A stretch of 64,000 nt of DNA from a virus: IMG/VR virus record IMGVR_UViG_3300008262_003578; one strand, 5' to 3'. Position 1 is the stretch's first letter, and each line of letters begins with the position of its first letter. Under the pieces are notes generated by a model, which worked only from the letters and a program-made list of their open reading frames with translations, was not told where the DNA came from and ran no database searches. The position numbers and the translations under genes are program-made. Positions 34,440 through 61,257 of this stretch are shown here, in pieces.

Positions 34440-36101
34440 ATGGAGAAACTTTTTGAAGATATTAAGGTTACATACGATGTGTGGTTGTACGATAATAACA
34501 ACTCATTAGATGAGTATATAGATACTCCCCAAGATGACTTATACCCCGAACTTTTTGGGGTTAGATTGCGTCAATCTAGACGGTATATGTTAACTAATGG
34601 GTTTTTTAAAAATAAAACAATTAGTAATAACGAAGAAGCATTTATGGAGAATTATGGTAATCCTTTCGCTAAAGTTTCTATGTCAAGAAGAATTGCCACG
34701 GTTACAAAAAACGAGGATAAGATTAGTATTAAAATATTTAGATACAGTAGGGGTAGAAATGTTGGTAAAAAGTATTTCAGAGTAAGAACTAACCTTGAAT
34801 ATATATCATATAACATAAAGACAAATGCCCTGTATTATGGTAAAATAATAAATTACCACTTAAAGAGAAAGGCGATTAAAAAATGCAACAGGGTTTTATT
34901 AACTAGTGATTGGCTTGAGTCAATCAATTGTTATATTAATGGTAGTTTGGGACACTCAGATAGTCAATCAAATATGCTTGAATCATTTGTTAATGGTATT
35001 CCTGGCACTGAAAAGTATTTAGGAAACCCCAAATTAAGATTCTATAAATACTTCTTGGAGAAAAGCGGGGCTAAACTACCAAACAATTGGGATGCGTTCA
35101 TTTGTGTTTATCCACAACCTACTAAAAAGTTACTAAAGAAAGTTAACTACAAGTTTATAGATTCTTATATGGATTTACATAAACTAAAAGGTGATAAAAT
35201 TAAAAGATGTTTACATTTGGTTAAAGTTATTAATCTTGAATATCTACACTTTGCATATCAAGTATTTGGTGAAAAATATATCCTATCAAAACCTGACGAA
35301 GACATTGTTAAAATACTACAGTTTAGTAATTATTATGGTGGTACATATTATAATTTGAACGATTATACTAAAGCTGAAAAAAATAATGCTTATGAAATTT
35401 TTAAATTGATATTGGATGAAAAGATTGACCTTTCCACATTTACAGACCACATAAGGTTTAAACTTAGATTATCGGATATTAATCCTGTGAAATGGAAATC
35501 TAAAACTCTTGATGATTTTAATGACGAGCATTACGAATGGAGTGAGAAAGTTGCGGACCTTAGTAAATGTAGATATGATAGATTTTACGGGAACGATTTC
35601 AAGGGATGGGTTGAACAAAATATTGCGGTGAATGAAATTGATTATTACCCTGTCTTATTAACCAACAGTTCTGATTATAACTTTGAGTCAATGACACAAA
35701 ATAACTGTGTTAGAACTTATATTAATAAACCTTCAGCGATGATAATCTCATTGAGGGAGGGTTCAAACACAGGTAAAAATAAATTGACTATTGAATATAA
35801 TTTGGTATGTACTGATTGGGAAACTAAAGAGATAACCTTAAAAAGAGTTCAAACTAAAAGAAAGTCAAACATGATACCAGAACCTGAGTGGGATGAACCT
35901 CTAAGAATTTTGGATTTGAGGATAAAGGAGTTATGTAAACAGAAATTATTTACCTTACCCAAAATACAAGTTACATTTAAGAATATGTCAAAAATTGAAA
36001 GTGGTTTGAATATTGGTGACGATGGTTTTATTCAGTGGGATAACCGAGCCGTTCAAGCGGGACATAGTTTAAATTTTTATGAATTTGATGATTTACCATG
36101 A
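34440..36101 (+). CDS. PcfJ-domain-containing protein
   Basis: L..ES..QNNCVRTY, IISLR, LTIEY, RVQ motifs in the C-terminal third. Confidence 0.75.
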   Translation: MEKLFEDIKVTYDVWLYDNNNSLDEYIDTPQDDLYPELFGVRLRQSRRYMLTNGFFKNKTISNNEEAFMENYGNPFAKVSMSRRIATVTKNEDKISIKIFRYSRGRNVGKKYFRVRTNLEYISYNIKTNALYYGKIINYHLKRKAIKKCNRVLLTSDWLESINCYINGSLGHSDSQSNMLESFVNGIPGTEKYLGNPKLRFYKYFLEKSGAKLPNNWDAFICVYPQPTKKLLKKVNYKFIDSYMDLHKLKGDKIKRCLHLVKVINLEYLHFAYQVFGEKYILSKPDEDIVKILQFSNYYGGTYYNLNDYTKAEKNNAYEIFKLILDEKIDLSTFTDHIRFKLRLSDINPVKWKSKTLDDFNDEHYEWSEKVADLSKCRYDRFYGNDFKGWVEQNIAVNEIDYYPVLLTNSSDYNFESMTQNNCVRTYINKPSAMIISLREGSNTGKNKLTIEYNLVCTDWETKEITLKRVQTKRKSNMIPEPEWDEPLRILDLRIKELCKQKLFTLPKIQVTFKNMSKIESGLNIGDDGFIQWDNRAVQAGHSLNFYEFDDLP

Positions 36102-59667: not shown

Positions 59668-59711
59668 ATATTTGACTTTACAATAAATATTAATAAAAAT
59701 GATAATCGTGT

Positions 59712-59740
59712 TTGACTTAATAATAAACATTACATATACT
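59712..59740 (+). promoter_or_regulatory. Canonical promoter TTGACT-17-TATACT
   Basis: Drives the DIP1984-like gene and downstream RNA. Confidence 0.6.
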
Positions 59741-59757
59741 TTCTAAAACAACAAATC

Positions 59758-60192
59758 ATGACAGTAAAACAGGCATTAAAACAGAAGAATTTATTGGTTA
59801 AAAAAATCAATGAAGATATTAGAAAAGTTCACACATATAACTCAGTTGATGAGGGAAATACCAGACCATACTCAACAAAAGAGTTACTTAATAAAATTAT
59901 GGAGACCACTAAAGAATTGGTTGACCTAAAGACAAAAATCCATTTGGCAAACGCACCCGTGTACCATAAAATTTTTGAATTATCAGAACTTAAAAATACT
60001 GTGACGTTTTTGAAAGGTTTAGACTGTTCAGAAGGTAAAGTGGTTGATAGATATACTCGCTCACAGGAGCCAACTATCAAAGTTGCAGAGTTATCAGTAA
60101 TAGAAAGAGATAACTTGGTTGAGGGGTTTGAAAACAGAATTGAGTTACTCCAAGAAGAATTGGATACCCACAATGCAACAACCCACATTTAA
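59758..60192 (+). CDS. DIP1984-family-like alpha-helical hairpin protein
   Basis: M...AL..K..L.KKI...N....G....Y...ELL......ELVDLK.KI..AN...I.EL.ELK...L...DRY.RS......L....D.....E..I..LQ.ELD..N.TT.I matches the remembered DIP1984 pattern. Confidence 0.65.
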   Translation: MTVKQALKQKNLLVKKINEDIRKVHTYNSVDEGNTRPYSTKELLNKIMETTKELVDLKTKIHLANAPVYHKIFELSELKNTVTFLKGLDCSEGKVVDRYTRSQEPTIKVAELSVIERDNLVEGFENRIELLQEELDTHNATTHI

Positions 60193-60201
60193 TTGTGGGT
60201 T

Positions 60202-60384
60202 AGCCTGAGATGTAGATAGAGTTATATTAATAAAGTTACAATTGTTTCTAGAAGAGTCGCCGATGATATGATTTGGATTACATAGGTCTCAAAAGTCAAG
60301 TGTCAAGTTTTCAGAAATTTAATAATGTCATTACTTAAAACTCACTATAAACCTTAATATAATTCACTACTCTCAGGTTTTTTT
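60202..60384 (+). ncRNA. ~180-nt structured RNA closed by a ~23-bp long-range stem and U-tract
   Basis: cctgaga(60204-10)/tctcagg(60371-77), gtag/ctac, gagttatattaa(60219-30)/ttaatataattc(60354-65); T7 at 60378-84; ORF-free. Confidence 0.65.
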
Positions 60385-60426
60385 AAAAAAATTCATCCTA
60401 CCTATTGTGGGAATGGATTTATTACC

Positions 60427-61200: not shown

Positions 61201-61257
61201 AAACCCCCTCAAAAAGGGGGTTTTATTTTTTGTATTCGGATATTTATTATATATTTG
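61201..61257 (+). terminator. Terminator followed by TATTTAT (61241) and -7 element (61250-61257)
   Basis: aaaccccct/agggggttt stem + T-run. Confidence 0.7.

What the first reader, a model, noticed from the sequence alone, without database searches (positions are those of the whole stretch)
59712..60384. DIP1984-like protein co-transcribed with a ~180-nt closed-stem RNA: candidate ribonucleoprotein system
Seen: a self-contained unit made of a TTGACT-17-TATACT promoter, a 144-aa helical ORF, a hairpin over its stop codon (aacccaca/tgtgggtt, 60180-60201), then an ORF-free 180 nt whose ends pair across ~150 nt (7+4+12 bp, one G-U, one bulge) and finish in U7. Inside are two adjacent 8-mer palindromes (acaattgt 60238-45, ttctagaa 60246-53), a GC-rich gagtcgccga loop region, an inner agtttt/aaaact stem, and TCA(A/G) recurring every 7-8 nt (ctcaaaa gtcaagt gtcaagt tttcag). 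Other terminators in this window are 6-14 bp local hairpins, so this is not a plain terminator. Knowledge: DIP1984-family proteins are uncharacterised. Inference: the RNA is a discrete partner or scaffold, with the periodic motif bound by an oligomeric coiled-coil protein; a long closing stem plus U-tail is the architecture of 6S/Y/SRP-type RNAs.
Basis: partly seen in the sequence, partly recalled or inferred. Interest (0 to 1): 0.85.

Follow-up and report, generated by a model that had tools for sequence, protein, structure and literature searches.

The report
Phage protein gene with partner RNA
Right behind a small helical-protein gene of unknown function, this freshwater phage encodes a conserved, folded RNA of about 180 bases carrying short units spaced seven bases apart; the same gene-plus-RNA pair recurs in over a hundred related phage and bacterial sequences and matches no catalogued RNA family, so it is probably an undescribed protein-RNA particle.

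Summary
At 59712-60384 there is a conserved promoter-like site, a 144-aa gene, a hairpin over its stop codon, and an ORF-free ~180 nt. The ends of that stretch pair over 27 bp and run into U7.

The protein has the DIP1984/DUF6847 fold (3KDQ, Z 13.2) but scores below both curated HMM cut-offs.

The RNA is real and conserved. A profile and a covariance model, both built without the window, find it as the window's best hit (E 1e-9 and 1e-6). About 100 homologous loci carry it directly after the gene, on the same strand, once per record. These loci are lake metagenomes, IMG/VR contigs, Bacteroidota genomes and two huge phages.

The closing stem differs in sequence between groups but is kept, and all 13 modelled pairs covary. 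TCA(A/G) units recur at 7-8 nt far above chance. Rfam 15 has no match and no paper turned up.

Canonical DIP1984 genes in four other bacterial records also carry a ~250-nt covarying RNA that starts at their stop codon.

Protein-RNA binding is inferred, not shown.

The scan has already found this gene-RNA pairing on other DNA (at least 8 notes).

The parts
59671..59692 (+). Upstream copy of a 22-nt promoter-like direct repeat (TTTGACTTTACAATAAATATTA)
   Evidence: The direct repeat is 86% identical to 59711-59732. This copy is kept in only some close relatives.
59712..59740 (+). Promoter-like site TTGACT-17-TATACT, 18 nt before the start codon
   Evidence: Consensus scan. TTTGACTT...ATATA(C/A)TTTCT is invariant in five relatives whose upstream genes differ. 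Function as a promoter is inferred.
59758..60192 (+). 144-aa gene for a DIP1984-fold helical protein (three helices plus a beta hairpin)
   Evidence: ORF. 403 homologues at E<=0.001 and 1618 cluster representatives. AF2 model with pLDDT 89.7. 3KDQ is the top structural match: Foldseek prob 1.00, TM 0.65-0.74, and VIA-align Z 13.2, rmsd 3.6 over 140 residues. NF038048 scores 25 bits against a cut-off of 70; PF20935 scores 18.4 against 27.
60180..60201 (+). Hairpin (8 bp) with the TAA stop codon in its loop
   Evidence: MFE fold. It is kept in 6 close relatives, with one pair changed on both sides (CG to AU) and others changed to G-U.
60202..60230 (+). 5' arm of closing stem P1
   Evidence: MFE fold. 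The duplex is -31.5 kcal/mol, z = -4.7 against shuffled 3' arms. There are compensatory changes within the window's subgroup and across the family.
60250..60349 (+). Conserved core of the RNA: a GAU-rich strand (60262-60278), four TCA(A/G) units and the CUUAAAACUC box
   Evidence: An nhmmer profile built without the window gives E 1.3e-9, the only significant hit in 64 kb. Covariance model R2, also built without the window, gives 41 bits, E 1.1e-6, as the top hit.
60288..60317 (+). Row of TCA(A/G) units at 60289, 60296, 60303 and 60311 (spacing 7, 7, 8)
   Evidence: the family mean is 4.7 units per core against 1.35 in shuffles. Spacing 7 accounts for 25% and spacing 8 for 12% of intervals, against about 2% each in shuffles.
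60334..60343 (+). CUUAAAACUC box, the most conserved motif of the family
   Evidence: Alignments A6 and A8. It is also present in huge phage LR756511.
60354..60379 (+). 3' arm of closing stem P1
   Evidence: Same evidence as for the 5' arm.
60378..60391 (+). U7 run, followed by A7: probable transcript end
   Evidence: Sequence. The T8/A7 is kept in all six close relatives. Termination here is inferred.

Best explanation
This is a two-part module: one promoter, one small gene, and one structured RNA made from the tail of the same transcript.

Shown:
- The RNA's closing stem begins at or within a few bases of the gene's stop codon, so the RNA cannot have a promoter of its own behind the gene.
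- The stem is long (about 27 bp here). It is kept by compensatory changes while its sequence drifts completely between groups.
- The stem encloses a sequence-conserved core: a GAU-rich strand, a row of UCA(A/G) units every 7-8 nt, and a CUUAAAACUC box.
- The transcript then ends, here at the U-run that follows the stem directly.
- Gene and RNA stay together in phages and bacteria with otherwise unrelated neighbours.

Inferred:
- The RNA is the dedicated partner of the DIP1984-fold protein.
- Several protein copies bind the row of 7-nt units. The protein is made next to its RNA and loads onto it in cis.
- The long stem protects the ends. It may also be the site where a double-strand-specific RNase cuts the RNA out of the messenger.

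What the particle does is not known. Its presence in large phages and beside a type I restriction gene in Arcicella would fit a role in host-phage conflict or RNA metabolism.
For: - Fold of the window's RNA: z = -4.2.
- Membership of the family, tested without the window in the model: E 1.3e-9 and E 1.1e-6.
- Presence in relatives: 84 of 111 sources have the core at E<=0.01, all on the gene's strand and one copy each, with a median start 56 nt after the stop. Six of the misses are truncated records.
- P1 in 85 distinct elements: median z = -3.3, with 70 of 85 below -2.
- P1 covariation: 13 of 13 modelled pairs change on both sides, and 89% of cells pair against 32-45% when the partner is slid.
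- Sequence-only (MAFFT) alignments give the same stem with compensatory pairs: 4 in group B and 3 in the window's subgroup.
- The sense strand folds better than its reverse complement in 62 of 85 elements, p = 7e-7.
- The 7-8 nt periodicity is far above shuffles.
- P1 overlaps the stop codon or starts no more than 3 nt after it in 69 of 85 elements.
- Neighbours differ between phages and bacteria.
- Three viral contigs of 48-74 kb each hold one RNA copy, at the gene.
- Huge phages with only 32-34% identical proteins still carry the RNA.
- Canonical DIP1984 genes in four other bacterial records have their own ~250-nt RNA at the stop codon, with 26 of 51 predicted pairs compensatory.
Against: - No transcript data, so neither a discrete RNA nor a processing site is shown.
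- No binding data.
- The protein is not basic (pI 6.5), and only a monomer was modelled.
- The inner helices are weakly supported. P2 is 73-81% paired with little covariation, and P3 is 55% paired. The way the units are displayed is therefore unknown.
- A conserved 3' UTR that acts only on its own messenger would give the same co-inheritance.
- The loci are related to one another, so the counts are not independent events.
- The CM-fitted alignment leans towards the stem.
Confidence: 0.6

Rival explanations
1. The element is a purely cis-acting 3' UTR. The long stem and U-run terminate transcription and shield the messenger from 3' exonucleases, and the core tunes the stability or translation of this one gene. 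There is no free RNA and no particle.
For: The RNA is fused to the stop codon. In the window's subgroup the stem is followed directly by U7-8. A hairpin holds the stop codon in its loop.
Against: Most relatives have a separate GC hairpin terminator after the element, so the element is not needed for termination. A stabiliser would not need a sequence-conserved core with periodic units kept from 98% down to about 32% protein identity. The other terminator-like sites in 44-64 kb of the window are short local hairpins.
Confidence: 0.2
2. The RNA works without the encoded protein. It acts either as a base-pairing small RNA or as a decoy whose repeated UCAA units soak up a host RNA-binding factor or an RNA. 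The gene is then only its carrier transcript.
For: Repeated short motifs are the mark of sponge RNAs such as CsrB/RsmZ (established knowledge). The module sits in phages.
Against: The motif changes with the protein clade: UCAA-type units here, CAC-type units behind at least two of four canonical DIP1984 genes. That fits co-evolution with the encoded protein better than binding to a fixed host factor. Gene and RNA were never seen apart in about 520 kb of loci.
Confidence: 0.12
3. The element acts at the DNA level, as a replication origin with iterons, a recombination site or a cruciform. It is not an RNA.
For: It has inverted repeats flanking short direct repeats.
Against: The stem uses G-U pairs, and the sense strand folds better than the antisense strand in 62 of 85 elements. 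The orientation relative to the gene is fixed. A spacing of 7-8 nt is out of phase with the DNA helix. A terminator follows the element.
Confidence: 0.03

Closest known systems
DIP1984 family / Pfam DUF6847 (NCBIfam NF038048; crystal structure 3KDQ of Corynebacterium diphtheriae; often labelled 'septicolysin')
   Same: Same fold over the whole length (Z 13.2, rmsd 3.6, 140 of 144 residues; TM 0.65-0.74) and about the same size. The N-terminal 67 profile columns align in register. In the four canonical loci read here, the gene is likewise followed by a covarying structured RNA that starts at the stop codon and, in at least two of them, contains 7-nt units.
   Different: The sequence scores are below both curated cut-offs (25 against 70 bits; 18.4 against 27). 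The profile-profile comparison is only E 0.005. The canonical RNA is GC-rich, about 250 nt, has several hairpins including one like a tRNA T-arm, and shares no alignable sequence with the window's RNA.
Ro60 (Rsr) with bacterial Y RNAs (Yrn1, YrlA)
   Same: A protein gene sits next to the gene of its partner RNA. The 5' and 3' ends of that RNA form a long closing stem. The pair is found in bacteria and phages (established knowledge).
   Different: No TROVE-domain protein is among the neighbours read, and no Y RNA or YrlA model matches. Y RNAs are separate transcripts and have no 7-nt unit row.
Type III toxin-antitoxin pairs (ToxIN, CptIN, TenpIN)
   Same: A protein and a repetitive RNA are encoded in one transcription unit on phages and mobile elements, and the protein binds the RNA made from its own transcript (established knowledge).
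   Different: In those pairs the RNA lies upstream of the protein gene, consists of 34-45-nt tandem repeats and has no closing stem. The protein is an endoribonuclease of a different fold. No such repeats are present here, and PADLOC gives no real hit.
RNAs read by protein oligomers through periodic short motifs (TRAP with the trp leader; CsrA with CsrB/RsmZ)
   Same: A short motif is repeated at a regular spacing within one RNA.
   Different: Those cases use other motifs (GAG/UAG at 5-6 nt; GGA in hairpin loops) and other proteins, and the RNA is not fused to the protein's own gene.

Membership tests
DIP1984 family (NCBIfam NF038048) | HMM score at or above the curated cut-off of 70 bits | tested here: not met
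   25 bits, E 1.7e-5, residues 5-70 only. The Arcicella homologue is also not found by this model.
Pfam DUF6847 (PF20935) | HMM score at or above the gathering score of 27 bits | tested here: not met
   18.4 bits, E 0.0022. A few homologues at 65% identity do carry a precomputed PF20935 hit.
DIP1984 fold (PDB 3KDQ) | Three long helices plus a beta hairpin, superposable over the whole chain | tested here: met
   Foldseek prob 1.00, TM 0.65-0.74. VIA-align Z 13.2, rmsd 3.6, 140 residues. The next match has Z 9.1 with rmsd 10.4.
   Window. Canonical loci L110, L111, L114 and L116. The exact 7-nt rows are seen in two of those four.
Rfam 15 families (6S, SRP, Y RNA/YrlA and all others) | A covariance-model match | tested here: not met
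   No match on the element at E<=10 in the window and none at gathering score. There is also none at E<=1 in 20 related loci and none in four canonical loci.
Intrinsic terminator | A GC-containing stem with a short loop, directly followed by a U-run | tested here: inconclusive
   The stem base GCCUGAG/CUCAGG is followed directly by U7. However, the stem encloses 123 nt, so the scan tool does not call it. The U-run is conserved in the subgroup.
Type III toxin-antitoxin | Tandem RNA repeats of about 34-45 nt upstream of an endoribonuclease gene | tested here: not met
   No such repeats were found. The RNA lies downstream of the gene. PADLOC gives only a 15-bit chance hit.
Ro60-Y RNA module | A TROVE-domain (Ro60/Rsr) gene next to the RNA | tested here: not met
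   The neighbours are GH16, DUF5856, DUF6011 and unknowns. The whole window was not scanned for TROVE.

The most novel reading that the evidence does not exclude
All DIP1984-fold proteins would form one large, so far unrecognised class of ribonucleoprotein. That class would span the canonical DUF6847 family across bacteria, this Bacteroidota and large-phage branch and, according to unchecked earlier notes of the scan, archaeal members. Each gene would carry its own partner RNA in its 3' tail, cut out at a long closing stem, with a row of 7-nt units read by repeated protein subunits.
Probability: 0.5. Interest if true: 0.9.

Novelty: categorically new. Interest (0 to 1): 0.82.

Why it matters
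DIP1984/DUF6847 ('septicolysin') proteins are widespread. Their structure has been solved since 2009, but no function is known. The full-text library searched here holds no paper on the family's function or on an RNA beside its genes.

A dedicated, covarying RNA fused to the gene gives the family its first concrete functional handle and makes the question testable. Express the gene with its tail, pull down the protein, and see which RNA comes with it.

It would also add a new structured RNA family to the short list of protein-partnered bacterial and phage RNAs. Large lake phages carry it, which hints at a role during infection. Arcicella aurantiaca DSM 22214, a cultured type strain, carries the module and could serve as a test organism.

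Tried and rejected
Searches that found nothing:
- DNA search of the region against 50,697 phage records: no match.
- The window has no whole genome on hold.
- Sequence search of the protein profile against PDB chains: nothing below E 0.19.
- PADLOC: nothing real.
- PHROGs: no family.
- Canonical DIP1984 proteins in IMG/VR viral contigs: none.

Alignment and model problems:
- MAFFT misaligns the closing stems of different groups, and RNAalifold on such alignments returns almost no structure.
- mafft-qinsi could not run because MXSCARNA is missing.
The family-wide stem counts therefore rest on model R1, which was built from one group.
- R1 itself did not reach the window at E<=1. The core model R2 and the nhmmer profile did.

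Structural ideas rejected or left open:
- The inner stem agtttt/aaaact is 55% paired across the family and is rejected.
- The two 8-mer palindromes are not kept as palindromes in relatives with 83% identical proteins.
- The GAU-strand/UCAA-strand hairpin (P2) is plausible but weakly supported. Its register differs between groups.
- attC site, retron RNA and tRNA-like readings were considered. They lack the defining boxes or a neighbouring reverse transcriptase or integrase.

Probable chance hit:
- A second weak R2 hit at 35200-35297 (minus strand, 24 bits) lies inside a 553-aa ORF with no DIP1984-like gene beside it. I take it for chance.

Full report
**What is in the window**

The sequence shows, in order:
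- a promoter-like TTGACT-17-TATACT at 59712-59740;
- a 144-aa ORF at 59758-60192;
- an 8-bp hairpin at 60180-60201 with the TAA stop codon in its loop;
- about 180 nt without any ORF of 40 aa or more.

Folded as RNA, 60170-60400 gives a closing stem in which 60202-60230 pairs with 60354-60379, followed directly by U7 at 60378-60384. The energy is -51.5 kcal/mol against -36.1 +/- 3.6 for shuffles, z = -4.2, and no shuffle does as well. TCA(A/G) starts at 60289, 60296, 60303 and 60311. The other terminator-like sites in 44-64 kb are local hairpins of 5-16 pairs.

Sigma-70-type hexamer matches are not enriched in this AT-rich DNA. The promoter call rests instead on the fact that TTTGACTT...ATATA(C/A)TTTCT is invariant in five relatives whose upstream genes differ.

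**The protein**

Pfam and NCBIfam give only sub-threshold hits. DUF6847 scores 18.4 bits against 27, and DIP1984_fam scores 25 bits against 70. PHROGs, PADLOC and a sequence search of the PDB give nothing useful.

An AlphaFold2 model from 18 homologues has pLDDT 89.7. It shows helices 3-27, 40-86 and 114-141 with a beta hairpin at 93-108. Its best structural match by far is 3KDQ, the unknown-function protein of Corynebacterium diphtheriae. Foldseek gives prob 1.00 and TM 0.65-0.74. VIA-align gives Z 13.2, rmsd 3.6 over 140 residues, and the next match has Z 9.1 at rmsd 10.4.

A profile-profile comparison with canonical DIP1984 proteins is weak (E 0.005) but aligns columns 1-67 in register. I therefore call the protein a remote DIP1984-fold relative and do not count it as a member by the curated models. 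Its own branch is large, with 1618 cluster representatives at E<=0.001.

**The RNA is conserved**

I collected 14 IMG/VR loci, 80 metagenome loci (mostly lake water) and 14 loci from species genomes. The genome loci are mostly Bacteroidota MAGs, plus Arcicella aurantiaca DSM 22214.

Nearly every locus with enough downstream sequence shows the same layout, down to about 41% protein identity:
- a closing stem at the stop codon;
- a GAU-rich stretch;
- a row of TCAA-type units;
- a CTTAAAACTC-like box;
- the returning arm of the stem;
- usually a separate GC hairpin terminator.

An nhmmer profile of the core, built from 27 loci without the window, finds the window at 60258-60344 with E 1.3e-9, the only significant hit in 64 kb. 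It finds 84 of 111 sources at E<=0.01, always on the gene's strand and one copy each. Six of the misses are truncated records, and the rest are the most divergent members.

A covariance model of the core, again built without the window, gives 41 bits, E 1.1e-6, at 60250-60349. In three viral contigs of 48-74 kb there is one copy each, at the gene. Two huge phages, LR756500 and LR756511, have proteins only 32-34% identical, and both carry a comparable element. LR756511 keeps GTTAAAA units and the TTAAAACTC box.

Rfam 15 has no match in the window, in 20 related loci or in four canonical loci.

**Structure**

The closing stem P1 is the solid part. In 85 distinct elements the two arms form a duplex with median z = -3.3 against shuffled 3' arms, and 70 of 85 fall below -2. 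The arm sequences are unrelated between groups.

On a covariance-model alignment of 29 elements, all 13 modelled P1 pairs change on both sides. 89% of cells pair, against 32-45% when the partner is slid by 1-3 columns. That alignment is fitted to the stem, so I also used plain MAFFT alignments of closely related groups:
- Group B keeps a 25-bp P1 with 4 compensatory pairs.
- The window's own subgroup has proteins 83-98% identical. It keeps P1, the stop-codon hairpin and the U-run, with 3 compensatory pairs and several G-U changes.

The sense strand forms the stem better than its reverse complement in 62 of 85 elements (Wilcoxon p = 7e-7). This fits an RNA made in the gene's direction.

The inner structure is unsettled. 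A hairpin in which the GAU-rich strand pairs with the first UCAA units is predicted in several groups, but in different registers and with little covariation.

**Periodicity**

TCA[AG] occurs 4.7 times per core against 1.35 in shuffles. Of the intervals between successive units, 25% are 7 nt, 12% are 8 nt and 13% are 14 nt, against about 2% each in shuffles. Runs of three or more units at 7-8 nt occur in 40 of 85 elements and in none of 1700 shuffles.

**Linkage and context**

The 5' arm of P1 overlaps the stop codon or starts within 3 nt of it in 69 of 85 elements, and within 15 nt in 84 of 85. The RNA therefore has no room for a promoter of its own behind the gene and must be part of the gene's transcript. 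A ribosome finishing the ORF would sit on the base of the stem.

Neighbours vary:
- In the window's subgroup they are GH16 and DUF6011 genes.
- In Arcicella there is a type I restriction R subunit two genes downstream.
- In other Bacteroidota they are an M48 peptidase, a GNAT and an aminotransferase.

In two loci the RNA lies 255 and 503 nt behind the gene. In LR756511 a small lysine-rich ORF lies between the gene and the RNA.

**Canonical DIP1984 genes**

The curated model finds one canonical gene in 301 Bacteroidota genomes, and its relatives number at least 1595. I read that locus and three others: an Acidithiobacillus assembly, an Advenella locus and a further NCBI assembly.

All four have a GC-rich conserved element of about 250 nt right after the stop codon. 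RNAalifold predicts 51 pairs, of which 26 have compensatory changes. The structure includes a closing stem at the stop codon and a hairpin resembling a tRNA T-arm. In two of the four there are four exact 7-nt units of the type xxCACxx. Three of the four loci have a tRNA gene shortly upstream.

The pairing of a DIP1984-fold gene with a stem-closed RNA therefore looks like a property of the whole superfamily. The two RNA classes share no alignable sequence.

**How it most likely works**

Shown: one conserved unit, with the RNA fused to the stop codon, a covarying long stem, a conserved periodic core, a transcript end behind it, and co-inheritance across phages and bacteria.

Inferred: the RNA is the protein's partner, several protein copies read the row of units, assembly happens in cis on the fresh transcript, and the long stem protects the ends and may be cut by a double-strand-specific RNase to release the RNA. 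I put this at 0.6.

The rivals are a purely cis-acting 3' UTR (0.2), an RNA that acts without the protein as a decoy or base-pairing RNA (0.12), and a DNA-level element (0.03). No transcript or binding data exist. The protein is not basic (pI 6.5).

**Known relatives and novelty**

The module resembles Ro60-Y RNA in having an adjacent partner RNA with a closing stem. It resembles type III toxin-antitoxin pairs in placing a protein and a repetitive RNA in one unit. It resembles TRAP or CsrA targets in having periodic short motifs. It meets the defining features of none of them.

Full-text searches for DIP1984, DUF6847, 3KDQ, PF20935, NF038048 and septicolysin found no paper on the family's function or on an RNA beside its genes.

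The scan's own notes show the same gene-RNA pairing reported at least 8 times on other DNA: bacteria, megaplasmids, giant phages and Asgard archaea. Those are unchecked AI notes. What I cite as evidence I tested here.

**Limits**

- The loci are phylogenetically related, so the counts are not independent.
- E-values from the short calibration are rough.
- The family-wide stem statistics use an alignment fitted to the stem.
- CheckV puts three related viral contigs of 48-74 kb at 17-25% complete, so those phages are probably about 300 kb.

Noticed in passing
window 59671-59692 and 59711-59732: Two copies of a 22-nt promoter-like sequence lie 40 nt apart on the + strand before the gene. The second is invariant in relatives, and the first is kept in only some of them.
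   Followed up: partly
window 60378-60391: T7 is followed directly by A7 (T8/A7 in relatives). This could serve as a terminator tail in both directions.
   Followed up: no
window 35200-35297 (minus strand): A weak second hit of the core RNA model (24 bits, rough E 0.007) lies inside a 553-aa ORF, with no DIP1984-like gene beside it. It is probably chance.
   Followed up: partly
L110 1211-1420; L114 1013-1094; L116 1292-1364; L018 26-431: tRNA genes lie 80-400 nt upstream, on the same strand, of three of four canonical DIP1984 genes and of one phage-type homologue. The canonical RNA itself contains a T-arm-like hairpin (GGGTTCGATCCCC).
   Followed up: partly
L099 5684-8059 (Arcicella aurantiaca DSM 22214): A type I restriction enzyme R subunit (ResIII, EcoEI_R_C, HSDR_N domains) lies two small genes downstream of the module.
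   Followed up: no
L022, L048, L095, L060, L081 and others (longer class of the RNA): In the longer variants the closing stem carries a conserved internal-loop pair. The 5' arm reads TTGGGT..GGGGA and the 3' arm reads TTTGAACTT..ACCCAA. This suggests a specific tertiary or protein-binding motif that the window's shorter version lacks.
   Followed up: no
L044, L073, L125: The RNA is separated from the gene by 255, 503 and about 130 nt. In L125 (huge phage LR756511) a small lysine-rich ORF fills the gap.
   Followed up: no
window 61201-61223: A strong two-way terminator hairpin (AAACCCCC...GGGGGTTT) lies after the DUF6011-like gene. Several weak Rfam leader-type hits there are just this hairpin.
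   Followed up: no
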